A DNA stretch of 64,000 bases from Trypanosoma brucei (lineage: Eukaryota), in assembly GCA_000002445.1 (NCBI GenBank), contig CM000207.1, forward strand, positions 2,688,001 to 2,752,000, read 5' to 3'. The notes under the pieces were generated by a model. The model was given only the letters and a program-made list of their open reading frames with translations, was not told where the DNA came from and ran no database searches. The position numbers and the translations under genes were made by a program. Below are positions 1,661 through 54,539 of the stretch, one piece after another. Every line of letters starts with the position of its first letter. Positions within the stretch are counted from its first letter, which is position 1.

Positions 1661-2043
1661 GTGTGATCAAAGGAACAGAATTGTAAATGAGAAAATAATG
1701 CTTAAAAAAATTCAAGTTTCCTTGCAAATTAAATTTTAATATGATTGCTGCTGATTTTGTGAGATTTCTATTATCAGGAATTTTGCTCAATTTCACAAAA
1801 TTTGCCATTAACGGAGATTTATCTATATTTGGTAAAATATGAAATATTTTAAAAACCATTTAATAAAATGCATAAACTACATAAATTAATAAAAATTTTA
1901 CGTATAACATTTTGTTATGAAAGTGGAATATTTTTTCAAAGTAATGGGCAAATAGGGTATGAAAATGAATCATATTAATAAACTGTTCGAATTATGTTAA
2001 CTAGTAATAGTAAGAATGCCTTCCGCATGTCTGGCACCTCAAC

Positions 2044-5000: not shown

Positions 5001-5382
5001 TGACGATGTCAAAAGGGAGGCTTCCGAAAAGTGGATTGAACGGCATTTTGCACGGAGGGGGAAGGAGCCACCGCGACGAGAGCACTACGAATTGTGGACT
5101 GATGGATCCGTGTCCCTCTGTGAGAAGTCCGGAGCAGTTGCTCTGCTCTATAAAAACAATACGCTTATTTGTGCACCCAAAACCGGAGCAGGGGAAATCT
5201 CATGCAGTTACAGAGCGGAATGCGTAGCATTAGAGATAGAACTGCAACGGCTGCTGAAATGGCTTCCGGCATACAGAAGCACACCGAGCAGGTTGTCCAT
5301 CTTCTCTGACTCGCTGTCAATGTTAACAGCACTGCAGACAGGCCCCCTAGCCGTAACGGACCCAATTCTAAGACGACTATGA
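2044..5382 (+). CDS. ingi polyprotein, N-terminal 1112 aa: 2A-like peptide, AP-endonuclease, reverse transcriptase, start of RNase H; ends at in-frame TGA 5383-5385
   Basis: ORF track 1112 aa; motifs DVEENPGP, RT segment ...PVTLTSCLCKVMERII... and GFFADDLTLLA (Y/FxDD box), RNase H-like ELWTDGS...AECVALE. Confidence 0.9.
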   Translation: MVPWSSTPYHRGKPRASSVPFMGNTAASWLSPMIQHRDQQRLAGTPFFICRSLGTSKRAISSIIRTKMLLSGDVEENPGPSLRGMQWNCAGLSQGKRLALHKTLVDERIAFCLLSETRMTLGEEACFTVSGYQHHGIARNCKGGGVSILVREDLLVETGMAVVGRIEQVHATIHLARGTALTVTSAYVPPKHTFTATDLDTLLTTDGAQLIGADANAHALAWDRTSPPNTKGETLTQWCIDNQFLVCNTGECTRYARHHGESTLDVTLSRNCTVYMWTSLYSPDSDHHNIFFDVIVGDDTDALSCTRPRMPMYVWLKADWRNFRLKVDELCRKIGREKNVNTLEQKLSSAIRIATKMFVPRGCRATPPHWTPTLTKLDEEIAGCGPSHRREMLVATRKQILDRTTKKRWRTLCSRLAVSDRCSWHIVKKVYAPRPLTTLAVLVDNAAITDYRQAERFSKLYSSRARRQPDSHPPAPIKTIASEFSPITMAELRRSIKLLPTGSAAGPDCLYNEALQHLGRKALNVVLRLFNESLRAGVVLPAWKIGVIIPILKAGKKAEDLDSYRPVTLTSCLCKVMERIIAARLRDTVESQLTPQQSGFRPGCSTLEQLLHVRAALCRPTHQHRTGAVFVDYEKAFDTVDHDKIAREMHRMKVSPYIVKWCVSFLSNRTGRVRFKEKLSRSRTFERGVPKGTVLGPIMFIIVMNSLSQRLAEVPLLQHGFFADDLTLLARHTERDVINHTLQCGLNVVLQWSKEYFMSVNVAKTKCTLFGCTERHPLTLQLDGERIGADRTPKLLGVTFQRLHGMATHAAETRRKMDFRILQIAAISASTWGPRRQVLRAFYLALVQAHTMYGIEVWYWDASERSRDLLAAAQHKASRIIAGIPHGTRKEDSLLEANLLPLKTTTLVRSMKFMLMCESRGGCLRRSAEEVYHSKHPVRALHSRIMLSYPLLHIEPREHPLETSTLRHSCRPLFHTQIKPVCADDPDDVKREASEKWIERHFARRGKEPPRREHYELWTDGSVSLCEKSGAVALLYKNNTLICAPKTGAGEISCSYRAECVALEIELQRLLKWLPAYRSTPSRLSIFSDSLSMLTALQTGPLAVTDPILRRL
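2260..2283 (+). other. 2A-like ribosome-skipping peptide motif (DVEENPGP) at codons 73-80 of ingi ORF
   Basis: gat gtg gaa gag aat ccc ggc ccg read directly from sequence; matches the D(V/I)ExNPGP 2A consensus reported for L1Tc/ingi-clade elements. Confidence 0.85.
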
Positions 5383-5412
5383 AGGCTTCTGCTTCAAGTT
5401 CAGAGAAGGAAG

Positions 5413-6741
5413 GTGCGTATCAGACTGCAATTTGTGTTTGGCCATTGTGGCGTGAAACGGAATGAGTTTTGTAATGAAATGGCCAAAAAGGCCGCTGATT
5501 TACCACAGTTGCGAGACACATGGATCCCCGACATCATTGCTTATGCGAAGCGAGTGCTTAGGTCGGAAGAAGTCCATGAGAACACTCATAGGTTTGGTAT
5601 CACGGGCAACCACTTTCCAACAAAACATAAGGAAGAACTGACGAGGGAAGAAGAAACGGCACTGGCACGCTTTCGGGTTGGGTCTTCAAGACACTATGGA
5701 TGGATGTTGCGAAAGATCAACCCGAGTGTGCCTCCACAGTGCCGATGGTATAACCCGCAACATGCAGCGATAGGACCAACAATACAAACAGCCCCAACTG
5801 TTGCGACACGCACTCTTCAGAGAACCTCCGAACCGACCAAATGTACGGAATGTGATGCCACATACCAATGCCGCTCGAGTACTGTAACGCACATGGTAAA
5901 CAAACATGGCTTTGTGCGAGCTGATGCCCACCGGAGGATCAAATACGGCGATGCAACACCCGCAGTGGATATCCCCCCGGAGCCCCCTCCAGTGGTGGCG
6001 ATCGTTCCTTTACTATCGAGCACACGAGTCCTGATGAGACCGCAGGTGCTTCATTGTACCATCTGTGCCTCCAAATTCGCAGTACCAGGCCGACTACTAC
6101 ACCACCTTAGAACAATACATGGCATAGGTAGCGGTAGTTGCCGCGTGAAAAGGGGGCGAGAGAACGAGGACTCAGTGCAAGGAGATGGTAGAGCCCCAGC
6201 AGCGCCAGTCTCTCAGGATACACGGAAGCTGCCGTTTCAATGTGACCTGTGCGAGACGAGCTTCGGTACACGCTCTTCCCGGTCACTACACAAGAAATTC
6301 AAACATAAGAGCATAGTGACGGAGGACGGTACCGTGGTGGTGGTGCAATTCCCTCGTAAGCGTGCCCGTGAAGGAAACGTTGACGTCCCGGGGAAAGGCG
6401 AGGTGCAGTGTGGTGTGTGCCAAAAAGTGCTCAGTTGCAGGGATTCTCTCATCCGACACTGTAAGGCTTTCCACAAAGGTGAGGGAGTCGAGGTTAAATG
6501 CAGCAAAAGCACAAAATTGTGTGCCACTGATTCCCCGCATACAAATGCATCCATGTTGGTGTGCCTGACATGCGGAAGGCAGTGTGCTAGCAAAACTGGC
6601 CTCACCCTACATCAAAAGAAGATGCACGGTATGAAGGTAGAGCGCGCTGTTACCAGCCAACGCGGCGACTGCGAAGAAACGGCGCTGCACCTGATGAGCT
6701 GTCCCGGTTTGAAGGAATTACGTGTCAGGTTAGCTGTATAA
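5413..6741 (+). CDS. ingi polyprotein C-terminal portion (same frame as 2044..5382, separated by one TGA): end of RNase H plus four C2H2 zinc fingers
   Basis: Same reading frame (positions 1 mod 3) as upstream ORF; fingers CTICASKF..HHLRTIH, CDLCETSF..HKKFKH, CGVCQKVL..RHCKAFH, CLTCGRQC..HQKKMH. Confidence 0.85.
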   Translation: MRIRLQFVFGHCGVKRNEFCNEMAKKAADLPQLRDTWIPDIIAYAKRVLRSEEVHENTHRFGITGNHFPTKHKEELTREEETALARFRVGSSRHYGWMLRKINPSVPPQCRWYNPQHAAIGPTIQTAPTVATRTLQRTSEPTKCTECDATYQCRSSTVTHMVNKHGFVRADAHRRIKYGDATPAVDIPPEPPPVVAIVPLLSSTRVLMRPQVLHCTICASKFAVPGRLLHHLRTIHGIGSGSCRVKRGRENEDSVQGDGRAPAAPVSQDTRKLPFQCDLCETSFGTRSSRSLHKKFKHKSIVTEDGTVVVVQFPRKRAREGNVDVPGKGEVQCGVCQKVLSCRDSLIRHCKAFHKGEGVEVKCSKSTKLCATDSPHTNASMLVCLTCGRQCASKTGLTLHQKKMHGMKVERAVTSQRGDCEETALHLMSCPGLKELRVRLAV

Positions 6742-12110: not shown

Positions 12111-12246
12111 ACAAAATAGGAGACCGTTTATGATAGCAGTATCTTTTTAACCATATCACCTCGCTACATTACACCCAAAGTCCACCTTTTAACAAATTTT
12201 CGTGTATTCAACTTCTATTAAACATTTTGCATACTTTCATCAAAAC

Positions 12247-12262
12247 GTGTTAAAATATATCA
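12247..12262 (-). promoter_or_regulatory. VSG 3'UTR conserved 16-mer (TGATATATTTTAACAC) belonging to orphan VSG 3' fragment
   Basis: Exact reverse complement GTGTTAAAATATATCA at 12247-12262. Confidence 0.8.
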
Positions 12263-12357
12263 AATTTAAGCTGAATTTTATGAAATTTATGAATTATTCA
12301 TTTTGAGAGAAATTTCTAAAAGTGAGCAAAAATCCTAAATATTTTTTTCCTCAAATC

Positions 12358-12700
12358 AAAAATGCAAGCAAAAGAGGGTCCTTTATCACAAAAGAATTTT
12401 CCATGTGGTGTTTGTGTGGTTTTTCTATCATTTTTACTCGTTCCCGCTTATTTTTCTACTTCCTTCTTGATTTCCTCACTCAATCTGAGCATTTTACCCT
12501 AGACGGATTTTGGGTTAAAAACGTACCCCTGGGAGTTGAGCGTCTTTGTTCGTTGGGTGTCAGCGGCAGATTGTGTAGTCGCTCCTTAATTTCTGATCTT
12601 TATAATCGCCATTTCACAAATAGTTTCCCCTTTCTTTATTTACTTTTTGAAAACAAATCGTTTGGCTCACCGAAACTGCAGCGCGCCAGCGTAAAAAAAT
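12358..12700 (-). pseudogene. Orphan VSG 3' fragment: C-terminal domain remnant plus GPI-anchor signal (ENSFVIKDPLLLAFLI*) and own 16-mer
   Basis: Minus-strand translation of 12358-12420 gives ...HMENSFVIKDPLLLAFLI stop; pattern CCTGTGGTGTTTGTG shared with C-termini at 21545, 41320, 45790. Confidence 0.65.
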
Positions 12701-12744
12701 GTCGCGTGCAGTGTCATAGGCCGCGGTCCATATTTTTTTAAAAT

Positions 12745-13145
12745 TGATACCGCGCGCAGCACGAAATGCAGAGCTGAAATCCACAGAAGCAAAAAAAGTT
12801 AAAACTACGGGCTAAGGTGCAGGTGAAAAAATTAAGTGGAGTTGGACGTGGGGGGCAAATAAGGGTTAGGGTTGCATTAAAAAAGAGCGGCTGCATCATT
12901 AAAAAAAAAAAGAGAGCTAAAGTCGCTACAGTTCACTGCTATTAAAAAAACTTATTAGTAGCAGGAGAAATAACCCTAACCCTAACCCTAACCCTAACTA
13001 ACCTAACTACCCCCCCCATTCCTACCTACCTACAAAAATAAAAAAACAGGAAAGAAGAAAAAAAATTTTAGCTGTCAGAAAATATTTTTTTACAGAATCA
13101 CAAATTTTTACAAACTTTACAACAAACAAAAAAACTCGGCTGGTT
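12745..13145 (-). repeat. Telomere-hexamer cassette copy A: GGGTTAGGGTT (12863-12873) ... ~90-bp conserved spacer ... (CCCTAA)4 (12974-12997), plus conserved flanks
   Basis: Read directly; on the minus strand (TTAGGG)4 runs in telomere orientation immediately 3' of VSG 13227..14796; homologous copies at 16540-17345, 25015-25585, 45240-45700. Confidence 0.8.
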
Positions 13146-13149
13146 TTAG

Positions 13150-13165
13150 GTGTTAAAATATATCA
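13150..13165 (-). promoter_or_regulatory. VSG 3'UTR 16-mer of VSG 13227..14796
   Basis: GTGTTAAAATATATCA exact on plus strand, i.e. 16-mer on the minus strand. Confidence 0.85.
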
Positions 13166-13226: not shown

Positions 13227-14796
13227 TTAAAAAAGCAAAAATGCAAGCAAAAGAGGGGCCTTTGTTACAGCAGAAATAACAACTGCTCCTTCCTTAACTT
13301 TGCACTCATTTTTTTCCTTATCCCAAGTGCATTTGTTTTTGTCATATTTACCCTCTTCAGTGGCTGTGCATTCATTCTTTTCTTTACTCCCGTCTTTCTT
13401 TTCTCCTTCTCTGTCAGTTTTGTCTTTTTTGGCGTCGTCTTCGGTTTTGTCTATTTTTTTTCTCGTGTTGCTTGTGTCTCTTCATAATTACGGATCGCTA
13501 ATGCTTTTTCATAGTCGGGGCTGTCGCTTAGTTCACTAATTTGTCTCCTCCACTGCTTTCCGATGCGCCAAAGTCAAGTTTCTGCGACTCGTAAGGCTTG
13601 ACAAATTTTTCGTCTGCAGTTTTCGATTCTTTCCCAAACAGTGACTCAGCTACCGCTTGTTTGTCCGCTGGCTTCGTGGTGCTGGTGGGCTTCCCTGTAA
13701 GAATCAAGTAAGCGATGTCCTGCACTTTCGCGTCCCCTGCGAGATCACTTACCTTCCTTTCAACAGGTCTGGCTTGTGTGCTTATTAGATGTTGTTGGGC
13801 TATACATATTGAGTGTGCTACGTGCTTGGTGCTAACGATATATTTTTTTTCGGGGGTTTCTTCCGGTTTGCAGTCCGTCTCGTCGTCTGGCCAGCCGACT
13901 ATGTGGTTTGTGGTCAGGGTGTATTCCGGCGTGTGCCGGGCAATCGAAAGAATCGCCAGGCCGTGGTCGATGTCGCTAAGGTTGTGGGCTGAGCCGCCGG
14001 CAGAGGTGCAACCTATGCCTCCTGCGGCCGCTGCTGCCATGCTGTCGATGCTGCCTATTGCCCCGATGTGTATTTTCATTTTGGCCAGAGCAAATTCGCT
14101 GTCGGAAACCGCTTTGTAGCTTTTTAGGTCGCCGATGTTCCCTGCAGCGGCTTCGATCTTGCTGTCAACGGAATCATCCTTTGGACACGCTTCGTCCGTT
14201 ACAGCCTTTGATGTTACTGTGGTTGTGCAGCCTCGGCTGCTGCCGCCCATCGCCGCTTGTTTGGTGGCATCCGGTTTTGCTTCGCTCATTGTCGGGTTTG
14301 TCGGTTGTTGAGCGAGCAGTGCTTTTAGCTGTGCGTTGCGCCTTGTTAGTACATCGACGGCTGTTTGTAGCTTCGGCTTTTTGGTGCCTATCTCGTTGTG
14401 AAGTTCTTTAATCGTTGCTTCCGTCAAAGCTGATAGAGTTAGCAGCGCCACCTTCGTCTTGGTGTCGCGGACTTTGCAGGCTAATAGCCTCAGTTTTCTT
14501 TGGTCTGCTGCTAAGTTTTTTAGAGACTGTTCGGCGCCGGTGATTAGGCTGGTATAAGTTGAGATCAGTTTGTCGTTGAATTTTTTTTCGTGGTAGGGCG
14601 TTGTTATATCGGTGTTGAAACTTGAGCCTTTCTTCGGTAGTGCGGCGCAGGTGTTGTATACGATGAGAGCTGTGCTTAGCATTGCTAGAATCGCCCCAAT
14701 TGTGTGACTGACGTTGATTGTGGAGTGCCGCTCCACGAGGCCGCTTATTTTGTGTGTCGCCAAAAAAGCAACCGGGGTTTTTTTGGTTGCATGCAT
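13227..14796 (-). pseudogene. VSG (422-aa ORF 13528..14796; C-terminal 100 aa in shifted frame ending AVVISAVTKAPLLLAFLLF*)
   Basis: Signal peptide IGAILAMLSTALIVYNTCAA, N-domain; GPI signal decoded from 13227-13290 on minus strand; single frameshift near 13528. Confidence 0.8.
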
Positions 14797-15800: not shown

Positions 15801-16079
15801 AAGTAAACAAAGTAAACAAAATAAATAAAATAAGGAAAATAGTGAACTTTTTACAAACAATTTCCGCACTCATTTGCTTCGTCATATCCTTTTAATATAC
15901 GTTTTACTAACATTCTTAATTTTTATTGTTTCAAATTTTTAACAATTTTCACATTTTAATTAAAATGTGTCATAATTATTAAAATTTAGAAAAAGTTCAC
16001 AAAATTTTAAAAAGTCTCTCAGGCTAGGAAATTTCATAGTCTTGTTAAAAGTAAACAAAAACCTAAAAAAACTTAAAGA

Positions 16080-16420
16080 AGCAATGCCGCAAAGAAGCAA
16101 CCATCAGAGCAATTTGCTTATTTACAGTAAAATTAAAAACACGGCATTTAACTTTGTCCTTTTTATCCTCGTTATATTTCCCATTTCTCTATCCACAATG
16201 CTTTTTGCAATCCCTGTTTAATGCCTTACATTCCTGTTGTGTGGTGAGTTTGCTGCAGTGAGGTTTACTATCTTTTCCTCTTGCTTCTTGGTTTGCTTTT
16301 TCTAGTTTTTCTTTCACATCCTTGTTCAATATGCACTTTTTGCCTTCTTCGCTATCCTTGTTAAAAACGCATCCCTGGCATCTGCTCGCTTTTTGGCATA
16401 TTCTGCCAGCGACAGATCGG
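16080..16420 (-). pseudogene. Orphan VSG 3' fragment (Cys-rich C-terminal domain plus GPI-signal tail)
   Basis: Minus-strand translation shows CxxC-rich C-domain and hydrophobic tail analogous to 9454-9560 and 17414-17480. Confidence 0.55.
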
Positions 16421-16539
16421 TCAGTCCCTCCTTAGCAGCTCCTCATAATAATTTCCTACTTCCAAATAACTCTCTTTTTAGATTATTTATCCGTTAAAAG
16501 CAAACAGGATCGGGAAAAGCCATAGGCGGCACGCTGCCG

Positions 16540-17345
16540 TTTTTTAAGAGAAAAAGAAAAGAAATTTGGTTCCGTTTCTATCACAAGAAGCAGAGCTGAA
16601 ACTCTCAAAAGTGTGAAAAGTGTAATTATGACAAATCGCTAGCGAGTTTGGTTCTTCAAATTTAAGCAAATATTTCTGCACTGTAAATAAGGGTTAGGGT
16701 TCACGTAAAAAAGAGCTGCTGCATAACTAAAAAAAAGCTAAAGTTGCAACGCTTCACCACCAGTAAAAAACAAAAAAATTAAAAATTATAACCCTAACCC
16801 GCAAGAGGCTAGCTCGATAACCTGCGAGGCTCGTGCCGCTGACCAATCAAAAGATTACAGTGGCCGCCAAAACAAAAATATCGAGGCCCAAAAGGAATGA
16901 AAAAAAAATTAAAATCATTAAAAAGTTTTAAAAATAGTGTTGAAAACGAAAAAGATGATAAACTAAATAAATTAAGTGGCGCCTCACGGCTGAGGTGCGA
17001 ATAAGGGTTAGTGTCATCGTAAAAAAAGCCGTTGCATTAATTAAAAAAAAACAAAAAATTATAATAAAGGGATAATCGGGCAATAAAAAAACAACTGATA
17101 AGAGGAGAAATAACCCTAACCTGAATAACCCTAATCCTAAGCCTAAGCCTATCCATAAACTGAGCCCGGATAACCCTCCCTAGCCTCCATACCTAACTTT
17201 CCTAACCTCCTTTCTTCTTTTCTCCTCTCGTCTTACGCAGATTTATGCACAAAAAAATCAACAATAAAAAGGGGAATTTTTACTCATCAGAAGAAAAAAT
17301 TTACAGAATCACACATGCAGTCAGATTTTTTATAAAAACACACAA
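16540..17345 (-). repeat. Telomere-hexamer cassette copy B (two tandem cores: GGGTTAGGGTT 16691-16701 with AACCCTAACCC 16790-16800; GGGTTAGTG 17005-17013 with AACCCTAACC...CCCTAATCCTAAGCCTAAGCC 17112-17150)
   Basis: Read directly; conserved flanking motifs GCAGAGCTGAAA and TTACAGAATCACA shared with copies A, C, D. Confidence 0.8.
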
Positions 17346-17413
17346 TTTCCGGTGAACTTACGTGTTATAATATATAAAATTTCAGCAAAGGTAAATTGAG
17401 GGGAGAAATTTGT

Positions 17414-18973
17414 TTAGAAAAGCAAGGCCACAAAAGCAGAAATAATTAGAGCCAATTTTTTGTTGAGGAGAAAACTGGAATCACGGCAGTAAGGTTTTTC
17501 AAGTGTTCCTTTACCATCCTTATAAGTGATCCATCCGCAAACAGATTTTTTTCCATGGGGAGCTGTTTCTTGCACTGCCTCATATTTCTCTTTGCTTTCT
17601 ATGCCTTTACATTTTGAAGTTTGCTCTCCATCTCCTCCTGTATTGGTCTGAGCTGTACCTTTACTTTTATCTACTGTGCACTTTCCATCTTTTTCCGTTG
17701 TTCCTTTCCATTTGCAACAATTTTCTGTGCATGTTTTGTTTGCTTTATGGCCATCGCAGGTTGCTGATTTCTTGGCTTCCGACAAAGCACTTTTGGGTTG
17801 GTTTTCGAGTGGCTCGCCAGTAAATTGGCCCAGGGTTTGTGCGCTTCTCGCCCGCACGAGAAATTGGCTTAGAATAGCTGCTTCCTTTGCCATTTTTCGA
17901 CATCTTTGTCTCTTTCCCTGAGCTCAGTAATCGCAGCTTAAACTTGGACCAACCATGGTATCTGCTTGCCTGCCGCCGTGGATGTGCGTGTGAAGTACGT
18001 CGAGTAGTCAACGCACATTTTGTCCGCAGCGCCGTCGCAATTTGTGTCCGTGTCTTTGCCTAGGCTCGATGTGCCGCCTGCGGCGGTTGTGTGGCGTCCG
18101 ATCAGGTTTATTAGATTGCTGCTTGCGGTTCGTAGGCTGGTCGGCGTGACCGGTCCTGGGTTGACCTCAGCGCATTTCGCGAGCAAGGCTTGTAGTCCGC
18201 CGTCCGGTCCGTTGCCACTGGCCCAGTAGTTACTTAATTGCGCGTGTGTGCAGACTACGGTTTCCGTGACGGCTGAGCCGAGGCAAAGACAGGCCAGGTC
18301 TTTTTCTAGTGATTTGCCCGCATTTTTGGTTTTGCATGCGGTGCCATCCCTGTCTGCTGCGGCTAGAACTTGACGTTTGGGCCTTGAGCCATCTGCCTCT
18401 TTGGCTTCTGCTCCGTACAAGGCTCCTAGAAGGTAGTTCCTTGCCTTTATGGACCGAGTTTGAGCCACCGAACTATACGCTGTTGCGTATAGGTTGTAGT
18501 GGAAAAGCGCAGCGTCACCCAGCGGCTTAATTTCCAGTCTGCATAAGAGTGCTCCTTGTGCTCCTGTGGGCGGCTGGTTATCTTTAAGCCATTGTTTGTT
18601 GGCGTCGTTATCTATAATGCCTTTCTTTGCTGTCCGCCACGCCTCCCATCCGCTTGCCCAGTGGGTCTTGTAATCTTTACTTTCGTACTGCGCTTGGACG
18701 TCTTCCCAGGCCGCTCCTTCTACAGCTTCTTTGAATTTGTCTTTCCATTGCTGGTCTGCACGTCATGTTCAGTTTTTTGATTTCTGCCAAGTCAGCTGCG
18801 GCAGACGCTACTTCAATGACGGCTGGCGGTGCTTGTTTGGCTAGTTGTATGAGGTGGCATAGCGCGCGATATTCGACGGTATTTTCTCCAGCGCTTGTTG
18901 CCGCATCTGCTGCTGATCCAAGCAGCGTTATTAAGGACAAGCAGATAAAGAAAGGCCTTTTAATAGCTAGCAT
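17414..18973 (-). pseudogene. VSG (three ORF pieces 18677..18973, 17938..18468, 17414..17893; intact GPI signal SSFLLNKKLALIISAFVALLF)
   Basis: ORF track; signal peptide FFICLSLITLLGSAADA; C-terminal CxxC repeats. Confidence 0.8.
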
Positions 18974-19229: not shown

Positions 19230-20389
19230 CTATTTCAAGTTTGAATGGTAGGCAGGCAGCCTTATTTTTTCTTTTAGTTGGCTTCTCAACGGAATGTATC
19301 CATATGCGTTTACGTGGTGCAAAACAATAAGGTTAGGATTTTCTTCTACAAATTTCTCGAGTGGCCTTTTCACATGCATCACAAAATGACAATCTTTCAT
19401 ATCGACCGTCAAAAAGTCCTCAATTTTAAGTTTATTCTTTATAACTTCTCCAACAATAATATCTTCATTGAGTGCTCTAAAATCCATATATGTTTCCAAA
19501 TTTCTGAATTTAATCGTTAACTTTACTAATTTTTTCAAAGGTTTATAATCAACTATTTCCTTCACCACATCCCTGTATAGTGTGAACGCATAACCAATGG
19601 TATGCCATGTAATTTCATTACTAAATTCTTTATAATAACCAACAGCTCTCCCCATATTCAATTTCTCTTGTGGTAATATTTCAAGGTATTGCAAATACAT
19701 TGGCACCCTCATAAATATATCATCATCTGCTTTCATTATATAGGGATTAGCTGACTTGAATGTATAAACTGCAAATTTGAATCACAAATATGTTTTTCTA
19801 CTCATCGTGAGATCTTATTCCCAGCCCCAATTCCTCAACCCTCCAACTTTTTTATTTGCTGTTGGATTCACATCACAAACAGGTAAAATTATAATATCCT
19901 GGTATAACTCTGCATCTCCTTCAACAATTTCTCTGAGCTCGCAATTATTATTTGTATGAGGGGAATGAGCATATACTATAAGCAACTTCCCACTAAAATT
20001 ATTTGACTTACGTGCCAATTCATGGTAACTCTAACAAGTTTCCCTCTGTAGATTCCTTCTTCTGAATCTTTCATCATTATCTATGGAAGATATTCCAGAT
20101 ACAACAAAATAATCTTCAGTTTTCCAAATACTCATAACATCCTGCGAAACAAATCTCATATACTCATCTTCAACAATCTCCAGTGAAATGGATTCACCCT
20201 CACTAAACAAACTGTATAGTACACATATAAAATAATTACCATAGAAATAAAAGATAAACAACTCACTTTTGCATAGATACCTCCCATATGGTTTATAACT
20301 TCCTGTTTTCGTACTAATGAAAACTTTAAATATCTTATAATATCATTGTATAAAACAAAAGAGAGGAAGTTAGTTGCAGCATGATTCAA
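19230..20389 (-). pseudogene. GT31/GT67-type UDP-Gal/UDP-GlcNAc-dependent glycosyltransferase pseudogene (4 frame-broken pieces)
   Basis: TM segment, then SGISSIDNDERFRRRNLQRETC (ExxxRxTW-type motif), then GDAELYQDIIILPVCD, then MKADDDIFMRV (DDD catalytic motif of beta-1,3-glycosyltransferases), spread over ORFs 20156..20389, 20031..20261, 19815..20018, 19230..19736. Confidence 0.75.
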
Positions 20390-21169: not shown

Positions 21170-21250
21170 TGTATATACACACTCACTACACTTTCCTATC
21201 AATATCAATATAGTTGTAGCTATTATTGTAACCCTAACCGTATTATATCC
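21170..21250 (-). repeat. 70-bp repeat followed by TAACCCTAACC junction motif
   Basis: TATATACACACTCACTACACTTTCCTATCAATATCAATA...GTAACCCTAACCG. Confidence 0.6.
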
Positions 21251-24586: not shown

Positions 24587-24960
24587 TTAAAATTCCACAA
24601 ACATCATTAACGCAACAGCCATCAGAATAAATTTCTTATTGACGATAAAACTGGAAGAGTGGCATTTGAAACTCTTATCACCTCCACTGGCATCCTCTCT
24701 TATCCACCCACAAAATTTGTTCTTTCCAGATTGTTTTTGAACCGTCAGCCGCCTTACATTCCGTCTTTGTCTTAAAATCGGCACATGTCTTGCCATTCTT
24801 ATTTTTCCCATCATTCTCTCCTGCTTGGTTTGCTTGTTCCGCTGCCTTCCTCACTCAAGGTGCACTTTTTGCCATCGCCTACTTTGAGGTTAAAAACGCG
24901 ACCCCGGCAGCTGAGTGATTTCAGCCGCTGACGTGGTGGCGCCTGATTGAGCAACTACTG
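24587..24960 (-). pseudogene. Orphan VSG 3' fragment (C-terminal domain plus GPI signal SSSFIVNKKFILMAVALMMFVEF)
   Basis: ORF 24587..24814 minus. Confidence 0.65.
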
Positions 24961-25014
24961 CTTAGCTGCTGATCGTGCTAATCGCTATCCACAAAATATT
25001 ATTAGATCTCTTAA

Positions 25015-25585
25015 TTTCCTCTTTGAAAGCAAATTGTTTCGCACAGTGAAATCGCCACACGCCAGTATAAAATAGTAATAGTAATAATTTTGAAGCCGCG
25101 CGCACCGCAAAAAGTAAAGTTGAAATTCACAAGAGCATAATGAGCAAAAGCTTAACAAATCGATGCGAAGGTGGAGGGGGAAAATATGAAGGTAAATATG
25201 TCTTCTGGGTAAATAAGGGTCATATCACGCGTCAAAAAAAAAGAGCCAGTTCACACCTAAAGGAAAAAGCTCATGTCGTGATGCTTCACTGCTAGTAAAA
25301 AAAACCAAAATAAAAATAAAAAGTCATAACCCTAGCCCTCTCTCTCTCTCCTTCCTATCTATTCTCCTGCCTTCTTTGTGTTTACGGCGCTTGGGTTGGT
25401 GGACAAAAAATCAACAAAAAAAATTAAATTCTAAAATGCCAAAACCTTTTTGAAAAGAACCTGAAACCTAAAAATAAAAAAAGGAGAAAAGTTTTAGCCA
25501 TCATCAAAAAGATTACACGCTTAGGCAGAACGAAAAATTAATTATTTTCAGGGTAACTTACGTGTTAAAATATATCAAAATTTCA
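25015..25585 (-). repeat. Telomere-hexamer cassette copy C (degenerate G-strand AAATAAGGGTCATATC 25211-25226; AACCCTAGCCCT 25328-25339) ending in 16-mer 25563-25578
   Basis: Colinear homology with copy A: ...GCAAATTGTTTCGCAC...GCCGCGCGCACCGCAAAAAG...AAATAAGGGT...GCTTCACTGCTAGTAAAAAAA...ATAACCCTA... Confidence 0.7.
25563..25578 (-). promoter_or_regulatory. VSG 3'UTR 16-mer of VSG 25625..27181
   Basis: GTGTTAAAATATATCA exact. Confidence 0.85.
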
Positions 25586-25624
25586 GCAAGAAAAATTGAT
25601 GGGGGAAAATTTAAAACAGCAAAC

Positions 25625-27181
25625 TCACAAAAGAAGCAATAAGAGAATTTTTTTGACAAGGAAACTCGAATCATTCCACTTGCCTTCAATCCAACCGCAA
25701 ACATTTTTTTTATATTTTGGAATTTCACCTTTGACTGCAGCACATTCTTCAGGAGTTTTAGCCGCACCACACTTATCTGTTGTTTTTGTCTCCTCATTTC
25801 CTCCTGGCCCTGCTTCTTTTGCTTGTTTTTCTACATGTGTCGTATTCAATTTGCAGTGTTCTCGATCCTCGTCATTTTTGCCTTTGCATTCGCAGGCTGG
25901 CCGCTTTGTTTTGCATGGCGCCGCTTTTGTTATCGCTTCGCATTCTTCCTCTTTTTGCTGTGGTTTGGCAGTGCTGGCGATTGCTTGAACTTTCGGTGTA
26001 AGTCGGCTGAAGGCCTGTTAAATTTTCTTATGCAGCTGGAGCTGCAGTTGTAGGTTGAACGCTTGTTCTCTCAGATCCGCCAGCCTGCTTGTTGTCTTCG
26101 TTATTTCAGCATTTCTCCTTTTTTGCTCGGCGATTAGTTCGACTGCTTCTAGCAGCTTTGTTCGCCATGCTGCTTTTGTCAAGACTACCGTGTCGCTTTT
26201 GGCGGTCGTCTTGTAGACAATGCACAGCCCTGAGTTCGATTGTCCGGCACATCCTTGGCTAGCCAGCTGGCAGAATATGATTTTGCCTTGTTTGGGTGTG
26301 CCTCGTCCTAAAAATGCCGCTAGGCTAGTCAGAATCTCGCTGGCAGTAATTTCCGTCAAAGGGCTGTCTGGACATTTACTGATTATGGCTGTAGTATCTG
26401 TGTCGGCATTGGCGAGGTCGGCGTGCGTGCTCTGCGCCGCGGGTATGTCATCCGCGCATTCTTTGAAATTGCCGCTGCCGTCTGTACTTTCTGCTGCTCA
26501 TAAGCAATAAAGCAGCGCTGCTAACGTTTTAGCCTTGGTTGTCTCCGGGGTGTCTGCCACGCAAAGAAGTGTTCTCGTGCCAGGGTTTCCGTTGTTCGCT
26601 TTTAGGTTGTCAAGCGTTAGCTCCGACAGTTGCGTAACCCCTTGGCTGTAAGCCGCTTCTAGCAGTTTTTTTACTGCATTTTCGGTCAGTTTAGAGTCTG
26701 CAGATGCTCCCGATGTTAGCTGCAGTATTGCGGCTGCGTCTTCTTCTGCAATTGGCTGGAGCAGCGCCGATAGCTGTCCCTTCTCATGTTCGCTGATTCC
26801 ATCAATGGCTGCCTTCTTTATCATTGTCTTGCTTTCTTTTTCCTTGTCAAGCTCATCTTCCGCTTTAGTCCAACCGTCCCATCGCAGTTTCCGTATTTCA
26901 TCGACATTTTCCCCCTTGTTGCTATATTTGGGCCTCTCCTGACCCTCGTGTGGTTTTTCAAACTTCTTCCGCCATGTGTCGTCACTTAGTGTTGCATTCA
27001 GTTTGAGTATCTCCTGAAAGTCAGCGTCTGCTGTGCCTTTTGAGGCTAACTCCGGGGTTTTGCTTGACGGTAATGCGACTGGTGCACAGAGATCTAGAAA
27101 AAGGTTTCCGTTGTCCCCTGCGTTTATAGATCGCACCGGTCGCCTTATTAGTACCACCGTCGCAGCAAACGTTAGTAACAT
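25625..27181 (-). pseudogene. VSG (pieces 26498..27181, 26018..26359, 25625..25849; GPI signal SSFLVKKILLLLLL)
   Basis: ORF track; B-type-like N-domain motif ILKLNATLSDDTWRKKFEK. Confidence 0.8.
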
Positions 27182-27435: not shown

Positions 27436-28340
27436 TTACGACTTACCCCCATCTATTGTGTAACATTGAATTTCTCCCAACTCGTCAGCGGTAAGTTTTC
27501 TTCCCTTAAACTCCACATACCAACTGAGATTTTTCAAAATTAATTTTTCCCTCTCCTCACACGCAAATGCTTGCTCTGTTAATTGAATGAATAAATGGAT
27601 CCTCTCTAAAATCACCATTATTTGAAATAGCAAAACATATCTCTTCATAATTCAGTTCAATCATTCTCTTACTCAAAAAACCCTGTAAAACAGCTTTTTT
27701 CTGCAAAGCAGTTCAAATCGGTAAGGGCTTGTAAATGCTTTGATCACACAACCATTCACTCGTTATTTACTGCAAGCGATTTCTCATACGCAAATTCAAA
27801 AATTTTAAATGCCTACACTTGTGCTATCACACCACCACCCTTAAGATAGGGTTTGCCACTAGGAGATGATTTTAGCAAATGAGGTAAATATTTATCCTCT
27901 TCGTTTCTGTAGCCCACATTAAAAAACAAATAACAACACAGCACATGATATTTGTGAACATGCTTTTCACTAAACTTCTTTTTATTAGTTGCACCATTTT
28001 GTATAAAATATCCCACAGAAGTTTCATGCTTTTGTTGATCAGCAACAATAACATCATACCCACCCACAGTTTTTAAAAAATCCTCATTATTTTCATCATG
28101 CCTTTATCAATATTCCATAACCCATCTAGGTCTTTTTACATGACTATACAAACCTCCCATAGCAATTGTAATAATTTCAACATGGCTTAGTTTGTCACTC
28201 AATATGAGCCTACACCATCCTTGAGTTGCATGAGTTTGAACGACAAACACAAACACTATAGGCTTTTTAGTATAATTCACTGACACATTGTTTACGTTAT
28301 TCATTTCGTTATCTTGAAGAGCTTTGAGCATAAAAACACT
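27436..28340 (-). pseudogene. Fragmented copy 1 of an unassigned conserved array-associated protein family (motifs VVQTHATQGWCRLIL, IAMGGLYSHVKRPRWVMEF, HLDGSDVIV, TSECYAPQL)
   Basis: ORFs 28107..28331, 27813..28067, 27436..27648 minus; paralogous to 36390..37340 and 51600..52340. Confidence 0.6.
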
Positions 28341-42756: not shown

Positions 42757-44436
42757 TATTTTTTCTATTTCTGGCTTATTGTTCGTTGTGTGTTTGGCTA
42801 TGTAATAGCTGCGACACGATGGTTCTTAGATTGGCACGGTGACGTTGTTTCTTCTGTTTTTCTGGCTTATTATCGTTCAGTTGGGAAAAGGTTATTAGAC
42901 TCTGTTTGCAGCTTGTGGAGTGCAGCCCACGCCGCCGCTACAGCTGCTGATAAGCTCGATATATTCGGCTGTCAACGCTTTTCAGAAGCAGCCTGCTGTG
43001 CCACCGAAACCGCATTCTGGTAGCTGCTTTCTTATGCGATCACTTAAATTTACCGTCTTGAATTAAAAAATTTACTAACATCAATTATTTCATGTCCAGC
43101 CTCCATCCAAAATTTTTCCATATTTACCAACACAATATTGGATATCGATTCAAAATTATATCTAAAGCACTCTCCTTGTTTCTTCTCTGCACATTGTGAT
43201 TGCATATACCTCCTTATTTTTTATAGTTGTGATTAAATGTATTAAAACTTCTTCTCGGTCAGGTTTCTGACTATTCCAACCATATTTGACACTCAGAATC
43301 TCACCGTTAAAAAATTTCTTGTACTAGTGCTGCAAACATCTGCGTTATTTTCCGCGTCAATTTTGTTTAAAGGTAGTTTGTAGATCTGTCAAATTTGCTA
43401 TCGATCGCCTCTTTGCCTCGCGTTCTCGAAGTATTGCAGCTGACAGCCTGTCGACTAAAGTTGGTACTAACATTGCTACGCACGGCATCAGTCGCCCTGA
43501 CGCAGATCCTTGGCTTTCGCTGCTTCTTCAGACTTTGTGGTTGCAAATCTTTTAACACAAAGAGTTTTTAACAAGTACAAACTAACACTAGCTCTTAGTT
43601 GTATTCGTCTCCCCTACTTACTTTCTTCTTTCTCACTTAACGATACAGAAAGCTGCAGGGTCCAGAAATACATATGGGAAGTCGATGCTATTTACTGTTT
43701 CCTTACTGGGTGATTCGAACCACTTGCACTTTTCCATGTTTTTTAGCTTCTAACATGCCAAATCTGCAGCTTAGACTTGCTTTTTACATTTTGGATGCTA
43801 ATACAGAAAATAAAGAAATGTTTGCGCCCATACAATACCTTGCCGATTTGGCTACGTCTCAAAACAACGAAGACTCAGTGTTTCCACACTATCTTCTCAT
43901 TCAAAAACGCTTTGATCACCGATATACCATGCCGGTTTTGACTCATTCTTTTATCTGCTTCTATTTTTACTAATTTAGCGCTACTTTTGTTTCTTTCTGT
44001 AAGTTCAACTGTGGCCATTGTACGCTTGCCTCTGAATACACTTTCTAGCTGTCGTTAATACAGGTACCACAAGCACTTTAAGATGAGTTATACGCTCTTT
44101 ATCTCGTCAATTACCTCCAATGTTGCTATAAGGTACAAAGGTATTATATTCCTTATTTTCCTTTCTTCCTTTCCGCTTTCTGTCACTGTTTCTACAGATT
44201 CCGTAGTTACTCTCCTTAGCTTATACACTGGAATTCGACTCTCCCTGATTATTCTTTCTACAATCTAGTTATGTATAATAATATCCATAATCATGTTTGA
44301 GCATGAACTGCCTATATTTCATCTCCTCATTCTCCTCTTCACTCTTCTACTTACTCCCATTGCATCCTTGGAATTTTTAAAAATGTTTCTATTTATCGAA
44401 TCCACTTCGTACTCTCATTATTGCTCTCATTATAAT

Positions 44437-44660
44437 ATTCGTATATACACACTCACAACACTCTTCTATCATTATCATCATCATTATTATTATTATTATT
44501 ACTGCTCTTATTATAATATTCGTATAGACACACACTCACAAGACTCTCCTATCATTATCATCATTATTATTATTATTATTATTACTGCTCTTATTATAAT
44601 ATTCGTATAGACACACACTCACAAGACTCTCCTATCATTATCATCATTATAGCCCTAACT
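44437..44660 (-). repeat. 70-bp repeats, three tandem units (~80-bp period)
   Basis: Three near-identical units CTCTTATTATAATATTCGTATA(G/T)ACACACACTCACAA(G/C)ACTCT(C/T)CTATCATTATCATCATTATTATTATTATTATTACTG read directly. Confidence 0.9.
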
Positions 44661-44799
44661 AATTTGCATTAATAAAAAAATACAAGAAAAGTTAGAATAT
44701 CACTCATTTTCACATTTTCATCAGAAAGTGTAAAGGTATATAAAGTTCAGATAAATTTATAAATTTTATATAATCAAGAAAAGATTTTAAAAATTGTTG

Positions 44800-45060
44800 A
44801 ATGCTACAAAAATAGTAAAAGCAGCAGCCGTCAGAGCCGATTTGTTATTTACAAGTAAACTAGAATCACTTCAAGCTTTATTATTCCATTTGAAGTTATT
44901 GCCCTTTTGTACAGGCATCCGATGTAATGTGGCTAGTGCAGTTGCAGTTGCAGTTGTTTTATCCCCGTCTTTCTTTTCTCCTGTCTCGCCTCCTGTATTT
45001 TTTCTCTCCTTCTTGTTTTACCCCTTCTGCAGCTGTTGTTAGCTTTTCCATTTTTTGAAC
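44800..45060 (-). pseudogene. Orphan VSG 3' fragment (C-terminal domain remnant with GPI-like tail)
   Basis: Sequence AAAGCAGCAGCCGTCAGAGCCGATTTGTTATTTACAAG parallels C-tails at 9454-9520 and 16080-16140. Confidence 0.5.
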
Positions 45061-45239
45061 ATAGTAGTAAGCCATTGCCTTACCGAGGTTGTTCTTGTTT
45101 CAATGCTTGCCAGCGCTAAAAAAACGGCGGTGCAGCGCCATAGGCCACACACCAGGGTCTTTAAAAAAAGTTTGAAGCCTGTCCCTACGAAACGTTCAGA
45201 GGCGAAATTAGCGAAAGCTACAAGAGTACAATTGTAACA

Positions 45240-45700
45240 ATGTGGGAATAAAATTAGTATGAGAAAAATTTAAGCGAGGATGCTGCCGTTCAAATAAGGG
45301 TTAGGGTTTCACTAAAAAGAGAGCTGCTGTGCCACAAAAAAAAAGTGAATCAAAAAATGGGTCGATATTGAGATGGAAATTAGAGCTGCAGATGTAAACG
45401 TAAACAAAAATGTCTGCTTCATCAATAAGGGTTAGGGCCACATCAAAAAAAGAACCAAAATCGTGACGTATCATTGGTAGTATAAAAAAACCAAGAAAAA
45501 AAATCATAACCCTAACCCTAACCCTAACTATCCCCCCTCCCCATTTCCCCGGCTGCACAAAAAAAACTCCAAAAAAAAAGGAAAGAGAAAAAAATTTTTA
45601 GTTGTCAGAAAAACAAAAAAAATTTACAGAATCAGAAGTTTTTTTACAACCAACAAACAAAATCTCGGCTGGATTTACGTGTTAAAATATATCAGAAATT
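45240..45700 (-). repeat. Telomere-hexamer cassette copy D (GGGTTAGGGTTT 45298-45309; GGGTTAGGG 45429-45437; (CCCTAA)3 45508-45528) ending in 16-mer 45679-45694
   Basis: Read directly; same flanks as copy A (…AAAATTTTTAGTTGTCAGAAAA…ACAGAATCAGAAG…GTGTTAAAATATATCAGAAA). Confidence 0.8.
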
Positions 45701-45738: not shown

Positions 45739-47184
45739 TTAAAAAAGCAAAAATGCAAGCAAAAGAGAAACCTTCTTAATCACAAATGAATTGCTCCCTG
45801 TGGTGTTTGTGGTTGTTTTTCCATCTTCTTTTGTTACATCTGCTTTTTGTGCTTTCTCTGTGATTTTGCACTTTTCTTTTGTTTTATTCCATTCGCAACC
45901 CTTAGTGGTGCCGCATTCAGCTTGGCCCTTGCCTTCGCATTTGGCCGCCTCCGCTTTGGTAACTTGACAACCTTCTTTGTCGTCCTGCGCTGCTGCGAGT
46001 TGACATGCTGTTTCGTTCAGAGCGATGCGAACAAGTGTTGCTGCTGCTACTGCTTGTTCTGCTTTATTAGCTGCTAAGTTGGCCTGCTTGAATTTTTTGA
46101 TTGTTTCGTGTATGCTCTTGAGCTTGTTGGCTTTGACAGTTATCTCTTTTTCGGGGTACTTATCCACCACAGTTTTCGCTGGAATTTTGAGGTCTTGCCA
46201 TGTTGACTGATCTGTGCCTAAGAGAAGCAACAGTTTGTCCGCTTGTTCTGCTGACTTAAGTTGGTCGACGATCTCTGCCAGGTGCTTTGAGCATTCTTGG
46301 TATGTTGAATCGTCGGCTGTTGGCGCCGTTTTCGTCTGCCAGTTTGTTTGGGTCGGAGCACTGCCCGTTGATGTCGTGAACAATTCGCCGCCCCAGTTGA
46401 CTGCTTGAACTATGTTCTGGCCGTTAATGTAGCCGCCATCTGTTGAGTCGTGCATGGTGAGTCCTCAGTCTGCTTCGCTGCCGTCGGCAGCTAGTTCGGC
46501 GCCGGCGTCTTTTAGGGCTGCGTATTTGCCGGCCACGTTAGGCTCCTCCGAGCTGCTGGATTTTAGTAGCGGCGGGCTACGTCCGGTAGCATCCGCGATG
46601 CAATCAAGTTCATTTGCCTTTGCTTCGTTTGTCGTCCCCTTGATGCAGTAGTTTGATCCTGCTGTTGCTGCCTGGAAAAAGACACTAACAAATTCGTGGA
46701 TTTTGCCTCCGTAGAAAGCGCAGCGCCTTGCTGTTAGTATGGCTCTTTCCGCTCCGTTTTGTATTTTTTGGGCTGTTTCGACTACTAGCTTACTGGCTGG
46801 CAGTAACAGTGTTGACATTTCCTCGTACACCGCTCCGTCAGTTGGTAGAACTGCTGTAAGCAGAATCTGTTGTAGTTCTTGCAGCTCCATTGCTTCTTGT
46901 CCAAGCTTTTGTAGACGGCCGGCGACGTATGCCGGGACCTTTGTCATTTCAAGTGATAAATGGCAAACTTTTTGCATTGCTGCCACTTTTAAGGGCTTTT
47001 TGTGTGCTGACTCTCCTAGCTGGGCATTGGATATCGCTATTGCTGCTACCACCGCTGCTAGTCTCCACATCCTTTCAGTCGGCTTAAAATCTATGAAGCA
47101 ATATGTTCGCACGTGCGGTTCTTGCCTTTCGGAGTATCGGAAGCTGTGATGAATGTGGTTCAGAGATAGCAGCGCTTGCTTCAA
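45739..47184 (-). pseudogene. VSG (N-domain ORF 46465..47184; C-terminal ORF 45739..46455 with GPI signal SNSFVIKKVSLLLAFLLF; one stop or frameshift near 46455-46465)
   Basis: ORF track. Confidence 0.85.
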
Positions 47185-54377: not shown

Positions 54378-54539
54378 AATAGTTAGATATATTTAAACCC
54401 TCTTTCATAAAAATGTTCAGATTAGTAACTTTTTGCGTTAATGTCGCATATAGCTGTAAAATAGTATAGTGATGGGGTATGAAAAATGAGTGTTATTCTA
54501 ATATTGTATATTTAATTTATTTTGTGGGTATTGCTTAGA

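What the first reader, a model, noticed from the sequence alone, without database searches (positions are those of the whole stretch)
12358..12700. Orphan VSG 3'-end modules always paired with the telomere-hexamer cassette
Every cassette copy is followed on the coding strand by a second, promoter-less VSG 3' end: a C-terminal Cys-rich domain remnant, a GPI signal and its own 16-mer (12358-12700, 16080-16420, 24587-24960, 44800-45060). Only then come the 70-bp repeats of the next cassette. The unit [VSG]-[16-mer]-[telomeric cassette]-[VSG 3' end]-[16-mer] thus has two consecutive 3' ends. That is the footprint expected if a telomeric VSG plus its downstream telomere tract was copied into the array by a conversion ending inside the resident VSG's 3' end. 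These 3' modules could also act as donors for 3' mosaic VSG formation.
Basis: partly seen in the sequence, partly recalled or inferred. Interest (0 to 1): 0.6.

Follow-up and report, generated by a model that had tools for sequence, protein, structure and literature searches.

The report
Truncated VSG remnants behind telomere-like tracts
In this Trypanosoma brucei surface-antigen gene array, four genes are each followed by a short telomere-like tract and then the decayed tail of another antigen gene; the four copies descend from one old rearrangement and look like neutral relics, not working parts.

Summary
The window is a T. brucei subtelomeric VSG array. Four of about twelve minus-strand VSG pseudogenes are followed by the same ordered block:
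- their own 3'UTR with an intact 16-mer;
- a T2AG3-like tract 200-280 nt after the stop;
- an inverted CCCTAACCCTTAT motif 72-110 nt further on;
- a 250-330 bp spacer of unknown origin;
- a 5'-truncated, decayed VSG C-terminal domain with GPI signal and an array-type 3' flank;
- the 70-bp repeats.

Only one orphan (12247-12262) keeps an exact 16-mer. The others are degenerate.

The upstream halves have the flank reported for telomere-proximal VSGs, and the orphans have array-type flanks. But the four blocks are colinear and homologous through the non-VSG spacer. The inverted motif lies 313-331 nt from the C-terminal-domain start in three copies. They are therefore paralogues of one ancestral junction, not four separate insertions.

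The "telomere cassette" matches the conserved subtelomeric T2AG3-like tract, not demonstrably a telomere. One copy is retained in a syntenic T. equiperdum locus at 97-98% identity, the same as other intergenic DNA. I found no evidence for a role as 3' donors.

The parts
13227..14796 (-). Copy 1: upstream VSG pseudogene. The N-terminal ORF is 13528-14796. The C-terminal domain continues in another frame to the stop at 13227-13229.
13150..13165 (-). Copy 1: exact 16-mer of the upstream VSG, 61 nt after the stop
12971..13033 (-). Copy 1: T2AG3-like tract (GTAGGTAGG...G8...TAGTTAGG, then 4.7 perfect TTAGGG repeats)
12859..12871 (-). Copy 1: inverted motif CCCTAACCCTTAT. It forms a perfect 12-nt inverted repeat with the tract, with a 98-110 nt loop.
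12531..12858 (-). Copy 1: spacer of unknown origin (TTTCAGCTCTGC..GCGCGCGG..GGCCTATGACACTGCAC..). This is the best preserved of the four spacers.
12351..12530 (-). Copy 1: orphan VSG C-terminal remnant with GPI signal (..NSFVIKDPLLLAFLI*), disrupted by stops
12247..12262 (-). Copy 1: exact 16-mer of the orphan, followed by the array-type motif at 12226-12245
17414..17893 (-). Copy 2: C-terminal ORF of the upstream VSG pseudogene (Trypan_glycop_C, 81.8 bits). The gene extends to about 18.9 kb.
17362..17377 (-). Copy 2: 16-mer of the upstream VSG (2 mismatches)
17111..17210 (-). Copy 2: roughly 100-bp T2AG3-like tract of degenerate repeats
16687..17013 (-). Copy 2: two inverted motifs (17001-17013 and 16687-16699) with a second GGGTTAGGGTTA at 16789-16800. 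This is a partial tandem duplication of the module.
16396..16686 (-). Copy 2: spacer
16063..16395 (-). Copy 2: orphan C-terminal domain (Pfam 43.7 bits, profile positions 15-99 of 104), with one internal stop and a degenerate GPI tail
25612..27181 (-). Copy 3: upstream VSG pseudogene with a B-type N-terminal domain (VSG_B, 76 bits)
25562..25577 (-). Copy 3: exact 16-mer of the upstream VSG
25212..25338 (-). Copy 3: decayed module. The tract remnant GGGCTAGGGTTA is at 25327-25338 and the degenerate inverted motif TGATATGACCCTTAT is at 25212-25226.
24901..25211 (-). Copy 3: spacer
24587..24900 (-). Copy 3: orphan C-terminal domain with GPI signal (Pfam 56.4 bits), frameshifted
45739..47184 (-). 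Copy 4: upstream A-type VSG with a single in-frame stop at 46465-46467
45679..45694 (-). Copy 4: exact 16-mer of the upstream VSG
45507..45550 (-). Copy 4: T2AG3-like tract (G-rich lead-in, then 3.5 TTAGGG repeats)
45294..45437 (-). Copy 4: two inverted motifs (45425-45437 and 45294-45306), a partial duplication of the module
45040..45293 (-). Copy 4: spacer. The first part of the C-terminal domain is deleted.
44787..45039 (-). Copy 4: orphan C-terminal remnant with GPI signal (Pfam 25.7 bits)
44417..44650 (-). 70-bp repeats (2.8 units of 83 bp) that start the next unit after copy 4. The equivalent cores are at 12064, 15735 and 24311.

Best explanation
The orphan modules are decaying remnants of 5'-truncated VSG genes: most of the C-terminal domain, the GPI signal, and an array-type 3' flank.

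Each lies behind a block made of four parts:
- a telomere-proximal-type VSG 3' flank;
- a short T2AG3-like tract;
- an inverted (CCCTAA)2 motif;
- a spacer of unknown origin.

The four blocks are paralogous copies of one ancestral junction. That junction most likely formed when a telomere-proximal VSG unit, ending in or just beyond its T2AG3-like tract, was joined to an array VSG broken near its N-terminal/C-terminal domain boundary. The route could have been aberrant conversion, break-induced replication or microhomology joining.

The composite was then spread by unit duplication within the array. Copies 2 and 1 are adjacent. The VSG bodies upstream were exchanged or diverged, and the composite has since drifted neutrally.

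Shown:
- the anatomy;
- homology and a shared junction among the copies;
- the two classes of 3' flank;
- retention of one copy in T. equiperdum at the background rate.

Inferred:
- the telomeric source;
- the type of joining event;
- the absence of function.
For: - Anatomy and coordinates.
- Colinear homology across the 3'UTR, module, spacer, C-terminal domain and 3' flank.
- Local alignment z-scores for the spacer against shuffles: 15.9 (copies 1-3), 11.6 (copies 1-4), 5.5 (copies 1-2).
- The distance from the inverted motif to GCGTTTTTAAC is 331, 317 and 313 nt in copies 1-3.
- Spacer and module profiles hit only these four loci and the T. equiperdum orthologue.
- The spacer has no match elsewhere in the window on either strand.
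- The upstream VSGs are unrelated: A-type in copy 4, B-type in copy 3, and no shared N-terminal similarity.
- The orphan C-terminal domains are not copies of the upstream VSG's C-terminal domain.
- Flank classes.
- T. equiperdum locus L001 is colinear with the window from about 59.2 to 38.2 kb (apart from one missing VSG unit). Its module, spacer, orphan and flank are 97.2-97.6% identical, like neighbouring intergenic DNA.
- Literature: T2AG3-like tracts lie 3' of telomere-proximal VSGs and seed new telomeres (PMC3708902, PMC1807955, PMC3610638). VSG fragments are a known archive class (PMC1934917). 'Residual ES sequences from recombination' have been noted in subtelomeres (PMC10686619).
Against: - The spacer similarity is weak for the pairs 2-3, 2-4 and 3-4 (z 0.9-1.5), so the case rests on copy 1 as a hub and on colinearity.
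- Copy 1's orphan ends in a different C-terminal type from the other three. This needs a later 3' conversion, or a separate origin.
- The inverted CCCTAA motif and the spacer remain unexplained.
- The 3'UTR-to-tract segment is better conserved between copies (85-87% for 1-4 and 2-4) than the spacer. This could mean later homogenisation or repeated arrivals.
- No true telomeric VSG flank could be compared.
- The sample is 64 kb plus one orthologous locus.
Confidence: 0.6

Rival explanations
1. Each of the four units arose independently, when a telomeric VSG plus its telomere tract was copied into the array by a conversion that ended inside the resident VSG's 3' end.
For: - The flanks fall into telomere-type and array-type classes.
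- The upstream VSGs are unrelated.
- Copy 1's orphan has a different C-terminal type.
- Crossovers inside VSG 3' ends do occur in this array.
- The 3'UTR-to-tract segment is more conserved than the rest.
Against: - A non-VSG spacer is shared, and the spacing to the C-terminal-domain start is near-identical at 331, 317 and 313 nt.
- As a rough estimate, three independent breakpoints within about 20 nt across roughly 1.1 kb of N-terminal coding sequence would have a chance of about 3e-4.
- The inverted motif is present in all copies.
Confidence: 0.15
2. The whole block, including the spacer and the C-terminal remnant, is a standard part of some telomere-proximal VSG flanks. It would have been created in expression sites by faulty cassette duplication and then moved into arrays as a unit.
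For: - Expression sites have 200-1590 nt between the VSG and the telomere repeats, and some carry extra VSG pseudogenes and 'duplicated cassette' errors (PMC2567434).
- In three of the four copies, the distance from the upstream VSG stop to the 70-bp repeats here (1.08-1.67 kb) falls in that range.
- VSG221 has unique DNA beyond its T2AG3-like tract (PMC1807955).
Against: The orphans are followed by array-type flanks and 70-bp repeats, which are not expected between a VSG and its telomere. No telomeric sequence was available to test this.
Confidence: 0.1
3. The tract and its surroundings are functional. Either they act as a docking site that lets telomeric VSGs be archived into the array (70-bp repeats upstream, telomere-type flank downstream), or they are an internal TRF/RAP1 binding site that nucleates silent chromatin.
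For: - Homologous flanks carry unrelated VSGs.
- The 3'UTR-to-tract segment is the best conserved part between copies.
- RAP1 binds telomeric repeats and T- and G/T-rich sequence downstream of VSGs, and binds sparsely in subtelomeres (PMC10686619).
Against: - Against T. equiperdum, the module, spacer and orphan evolve at the intergenic background rate.
- The divergent patch in the upstream VSG ends inside the C-terminal domain, not at the tract. Similar patches occur in VSGs without a cassette.
- Copy 3 has lost almost all telomere repeats.
- The hairpin potential is modest and is lost in decayed copies.
Confidence: 0.08
4. Assembly artefact: telomeric reads were mis-joined to array sequence.
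For: Subtelomeric arrays are hard to assemble.
Against: There are four diverged copies (about 65-75% identical) in one window. One copy is reproduced at 97% in an independent T. equiperdum chromosome-scale assembly.
Confidence: 0.01

Closest known systems
T2AG3-like tract 3' of telomere-proximal VSGs (Aline & Stuart 1989, cited in PMC3708902; VSG221 tract in PMC1807955 and PMC3610638)
   Same: The tract is G-strand oriented and lies a few hundred nt after the VSG. It has a T1-2AG1-n lead-in followed by degenerate and perfect repeats. It is about 100 bp long in copy 2, compared with 106 bp beside VSG221.
   Different: Here the tract is internal to an array and is followed by an inverted CCCTAA motif, a spacer and a VSG remnant instead of a telomere. 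Sequence identity to real telomeric flanks could not be tested.
Fragmentary VSGs of the silent archive (Berriman 2005, as summarised in PMC1934917 and PMC13233330)
   Same: Promoter-less, 5'-truncated, disrupted VSG pieces that sit in subtelomeric arrays.
   Different: These four share one junction and always sit behind the telomere-like block. I could not find that pairing in the papers I could search. Marcello & Barry 2007 and Cross 2014 were not available.
3' donation / segmental gene conversion ending in the C-terminal domain (PMC3708902; Michels 1983 and Pays 1985, cited there)
   Same: The recombination boundary falls in the C-terminal-domain or 3'-end region, and the resident 3' end is retained.
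   Different: 3' donation yields one chimeric 3' end in an expression site. Here there are two complete consecutive 3' ends separated by 0.9-1.3 kb, in a silent array.
Interstitial telomeric sequences marking old fusions or break repair in vertebrates (PMC7215372, PMC8537989)
   Same: A short internal telomere-repeat tract marks an ancestral rearrangement. The two arms are in head-to-head orientation.
   Different: The second arm is only two repeats and lies 72-110 nt away. The genes on both sides have the same orientation, so this is not a simple end-to-end fusion.
Extra VSG pseudogenes and duplicated cassettes in bloodstream expression sites (PMC2567434)
   Same: Products of faulty cassette recombination that leave additional VSG pieces beside a VSG.
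   Different: Those lie between 70-bp repeat blocks or next to a telomere in expression sites. These lie in arrays and are bounded by a telomere-like tract.

Membership tests
VSG C-terminal domain (Pfam PF10659 Trypan_glycop_C) | Profile match above the curated cut-off (21.4 bits) | tested here: met
   Orphans 2, 3 and 4 score 43.7, 56.4 and 25.7 bits. Orphan 1 has no hit, but it belongs to the other C-terminal type. The intact-looking VSG at 45739, of that same type, is also not hit.
VSG C-terminal domain (Pfam PF10659 Trypan_glycop_C) | C-terminal hydrophobic GPI-addition signal | tested here: met
   The tails are ..NSFVIKDPLLLAFLI*..FTVNKQIALMVASLRHCFF..SSSFIVNKKFILMAVALMMFVEF* and ..DSSLLVNNKSALTAAAFTIFVAFNNF*.
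VSG C-terminal domain (Pfam PF10659 Trypan_glycop_C) | Uninterrupted reading frame joined to an N-terminal domain | tested here: not met
   All four have stops or frameshifts. No N-terminal domain lies upstream: no Pfam or tblastn match in the spacer.
Expression-competent VSG 3' end | Intact 16-mer TGATATATTTTAACAC in the 3'UTR | tested here: not met
   The 16-mer is exact only after orphan 1 (12247-12262). Orphans 2, 3 and 4 have best matches with 5, 5 and 4 mismatches, no better than shuffles.
Telomere-proximal VSG 3' flank | T2AG3-like tract a few hundred nt after the VSG, in G-strand orientation | tested here: met
   The tracts are at 12971-13033, 17111-17210, 25327-25338 (decayed) and 45507-45550, 200-280 nt after the stops. 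Their make-up matches the description in PMC1807955.
Telomere-proximal VSG 3' flank | The flank continues into the long terminal (TTAGGG)n array | tested here: not met
   There are at most 4.7 perfect repeats, followed by non-telomeric DNA.
Telomere-proximal VSG 3' flank | Sequence homology to flanks of known telomeric VSGs (e.g. AJ271641, expression-site clones) | not testable with these tools
   No T. brucei telomeric sequence was reachable.
Head-to-head telomere fusion ITS | Two opposed repeat arrays that abut each other | tested here: inconclusive
   The inverted arms are perfect over 12 nt, but they are 72-110 nt apart and the second arm has only two repeats.
Head-to-head telomere fusion ITS | Flanking subtelomeres in opposite orientation | tested here: not met
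   The upstream VSG and the downstream remnant are on the same strand.
ITS flanked by retro-transcribed telomerase RNA | Sequence next to the repeats matches the telomerase RNA beside its template | not testable with these tools
   Only the 11-nt template CCCUAACCCUA is given in PMC8643685, and no supplement is held. There is no Rfam hit.
3' donation product | A single chimeric VSG with the junction inside the C-terminal domain | tested here: not met
   There are two separate 3' ends, each with its own stop and flank, 0.9-1.3 kb apart.

The most novel reading that the evidence does not exclude
The internal T2AG3-like tract with its telomere-type flank acts as a downstream homology anchor. Together with the 70-bp repeats upstream, it would let telomeric VSGs, including mosaics assembled in expression sites, be written back into the silent array. 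The orphan 3' end would mark the first such write-back. This would explain why homologous flanks carry unrelated A-type and B-type VSGs with well-kept 16-mers.
Probability: 0.08. Interest if true: 0.75.

Novelty: new member of a known kind. Interest (0 to 1): 0.33.

Why it matters
The composite is a readable fossil of traffic between telomeric and array VSG loci, so it bears on how the silent archive was built. If genome-wide copies all share this junction, the event can be dated and array growth by unit duplication can be traced. If junctions differ, telomere-to-array transfer would be recurrent, which would be a real addition to models of archive renewal. As it stands, the evidence points to an old, neutral relic. 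The orphan ends are poor candidates for 3' donors, and C-terminal-domain exchange is in any case not thought to change exposed epitopes (PMC3708902).

Tried and rejected
- Exact-sequence look-ups of four window ORFs found no source contig.
- Three protein searches gave few VSGs. Only one (T. equiperdum) came with DNA. A survey of other arrays or of true telomeres was therefore impossible.
- Is the spacer a decayed N-terminal domain? There was no tblastn hit from window or database VSGs at E<=0.01 and no Pfam hit. A more permissive tblastn gave only weak, non-colinear matches, some to signal-peptide regions. No nucleotide similarity to any VSG 5' region or to anything else in the window backed these up, so I rejected them as noise.
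- Is the spacer an inverted copy of the T-rich flank, as in a fold-back palindrome? Composition and BLAST on both strands say no.
- Is a structured RNA or telomerase RNA fragment present? There was no Rfam match, and the telomerase RNA sequence was not obtainable.
- Does the hairpin formed by the telomeric arms matter? The z-scores were -2.4, -1.8 and -3.4 in preserved copies and +1.3 and +0.4 in decayed ones. This is too weak to argue for function.
- Is there a conversion boundary at the tract, the docking-site idea? The T. equiperdum comparison shows the divergent patch ending inside the C-terminal domain, with similar patches in VSGs that lack cassettes. Not supported.
None held a description of this pairing. 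Marcello & Barry 2007, Cross 2014, Hall 2003 and Aline & Stuart 1989 are not held.

Full report
**What the window is**

The window is a Trypanosoma brucei subtelomeric VSG array.
- ingi retrotransposon copies lie at 2027-5658 and 60372-64000. They are 96.5% identical and carry reverse transcriptase and endonuclease domains.
- VSG pseudogenes run on the minus strand from about 9.4 to 50 kb and on the plus strand from 53 to 57 kb.
- The VSG at 45739 is 94% identical to T. brucei VSG 1125.5312 and 70% identical to a T. equiperdum VSG.

**Checking the observation**

TTAGGGTTAGGG (up to 1 mismatch) occurs 10 times against 0.21 expected. All hits fall in three of the four blocks. The fourth block, at 25.3 kb, keeps only GGGCTAGGGTTA.

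Read on the minus strand, each block has the same order:
1. VSG stop.
2. 16-mer, 34-61 nt after the stop: exact at 13150, 25562 and 45679, and with 2 mismatches at 17362.
3. GATTCTGTAAA (copies 1, 2 and 4) and a T-rich stretch.
4. A T2AG3-like tract, 200-280 nt after the stop.
5. An inverted CCCTAACCCTTAT motif, 72-110 nt further on. With the tract it forms a perfect 12-nt inverted repeat.
6. A spacer of 250-330 bp.
7. A VSG C-terminal remnant with a GPI-signal tail.
8. A 3' flank of 130-320 bp.
9. The 70-bp repeats.

Further points on the remnants:
- Three remnants pass Pfam Trypan_glycop_C. The fourth is of the other C-terminal type.
- All four are broken by stops or frameshifts.
- Profile searches with nhmmer find the module and the spacer nowhere else in the window. 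The pairing is therefore 4 of 4 here, in 4 of about 12 minus-strand units.
- The claim that each orphan has its own 16-mer holds only for 12247-12262. The other three are no better than shuffled sequence.

**Two kinds of 3' flank**

Ordinary array VSGs and the orphans share one flank type:
- The 16-mer or its remnant lies 43-111 nt after the stop.
- It is followed by TTTTGATGAAAATGTGCAAA.
- A GTGATAGGGTATGAAAAAT motif precedes the 70-bp repeats.

The four cassette-bearing VSGs never show these motifs. They have their own flank leading to the tract.

Published descriptions fit this second flank to telomere-proximal VSGs:
- 'TTAGGG-like' repeats lie 3' of telomere-proximal VSGs (PMC3708902, citing Aline & Stuart 1989).
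- A 106-bp tract beside VSG221, made of T1-2AG1-6 followed by degenerate repeats, seeds new telomeres (PMC1807955, PMC3610638).
- VSG-to-telomere distances in expression sites are 200-1590 nt (PMC2567434).

Copy 2's tract is about 100 bp and has the same make-up. The 'telomere cassette' is therefore best read as this conserved subtelomeric tract, not necessarily a piece of a telomere.

**One origin or four?**

- A MAFFT alignment from each VSG stop to the 70-bp repeats is colinear throughout. A local-pair alignment from the inverted motif into the C-terminal domain shows shared blocks in the same order in all four.
- Spacer similarity exceeds shuffles for copies 1-3 (z 15.9), 1-4 (11.6) and 1-2 (5.5). 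It is weak for the other pairs.
- The distance from the inverted motif to the GCGTTTTTAAC motif at the C-terminal-domain start is 331, 317 and 313 nt in copies 1-3. Copy 4 has a deletion there.
- Independent truncations would not land at the same place. The spacer matches nothing else in the window.
- The upstream VSGs are unrelated. Copy 4 is A-type and copy 3 is B-type.
- The orphan C-terminal domains are not copies of their upstream neighbours.
- Copy 1's orphan ends in a different C-terminal type. This needs a later 3' exchange.
- Copies 2 and 4 carry partial tandem duplications of the module.

I conclude that the four are old paralogues (about 65-75% identical) of one ancestral junction.

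**Comparison with T. equiperdum**

- Locus L001 (CM010680.1) is colinear with the window from about 59.2 to 38.2 kb.
- Copy 4 is present there. Its module, spacer, orphan and flank are 97.2-97.6% identical, like the neighbouring intergenic DNA. It therefore predates the split and evolves at the background rate.
- Low-identity patches (65-86%) lie inside VSG coding regions, both with and without cassettes. The patch in copy 4's VSG ends inside the C-terminal domain, not at the tract.
- One whole VSG unit (about 54.35-57.06 kb) is missing in T. equiperdum. The crossover lies inside the conserved GPI-signal codons. This shows that VSG 3' ends are real recombination points in arrays.

**What remains unexplained**

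The inverted motif and the spacer have no identified source.
- There is no VSG N-terminal signal.
- There is no RNA family match.
- There is no match elsewhere in the window.
- The hairpin formed by the arms is modest and is lost in decayed copies.

**Donor role**

Mosaic formation uses short templated patches from homologous donors (PMC13233330). 3' donation retains expression-site C-terminal domains, which are buried and not antigenically relevant (PMC3708902). The orphans are disrupted, and three lack the 16-mer. At most they could donate short patches. This was not testable here.

**Novelty and limits**

The components are known: fragmentary VSGs (PMC1934917), T2AG3-like tracts, and 'residual ES sequences from recombination' in subtelomeres (PMC10686619). 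No T. brucei genome or telomere sequence could be searched. The sample is one 64-kb window and one orthologous locus.

Noticed in passing
window 49700-49100, 46800-45900, 42200-41900, 39900-39700, 41400-41300, 39300-39200 versus L001: Identity to the syntenic T. equiperdum array is 95-100% in inter-VSG DNA. It drops to 65-86% in discrete blocks inside silent VSG coding regions. This is the pattern expected from segmental gene conversion within the archive.
   Followed up: partly
window ~54350-57060 (plus strand); L001 2250-2560: One complete VSG unit is absent from the T. equiperdum locus. The crossover lies within the roughly 20-nt conserved GPI-signal coding stretch (CCTCTTTTGCTTGCAGTTTT) shared by the two neighbouring VSGs.
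   Followed up: yes
window 21229-21237, 41021-41029, ~44660, ~30660 (minus strand): In ordinary units, a single TTAGGGTTA (or TTAGGGCTA / ATAGGGTTA) sits directly at the 5' edge of the first 70-bp repeat, within a loosely conserved TATTAGTTAGGGTTATAATAAT. It may be another telomere-repeat relic, or chance.
   Followed up: partly
window 13150, 17362, 25562, 45679 versus other VSG 3' ends: The four cassette-bearing VSGs have the 16-mer 34-61 nt after the stop, with 0-2 mismatches. Ordinary array VSGs and the orphans have it 43-111 nt after the stop, with 0-5 mismatches.
   Followed up: partly
window 16687-17140 and 45294-45530: Copies 2 and 4 contain a partial tandem duplication of the telomeric module together with the start of the spacer.
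   Followed up: partly
window 2027-5658 and 60372-64000 (plus strand): Two ingi retrotransposon copies, 96.5% identical, bracket the array segment. The VSGs change strand near 51 kb.
   Followed up: partly
window 19375-20346 and 58205-59174; 27502-28272, 36459-37313 and 51648-52400: Two further repeated non-VSG segments. The first pair is 90% identical and inverted, and its 168-aa ORF has no Pfam hit. The second set is 70-82% identical; at least one copy (27502-28272) lies just upstream of a Pfam-confirmed B-type VSG.
   Followed up: no
window 45739-47184 (minus strand): The VSG upstream of copy 4 is intact apart from a single in-frame stop codon at 46465-46467.
   Followed up: partly
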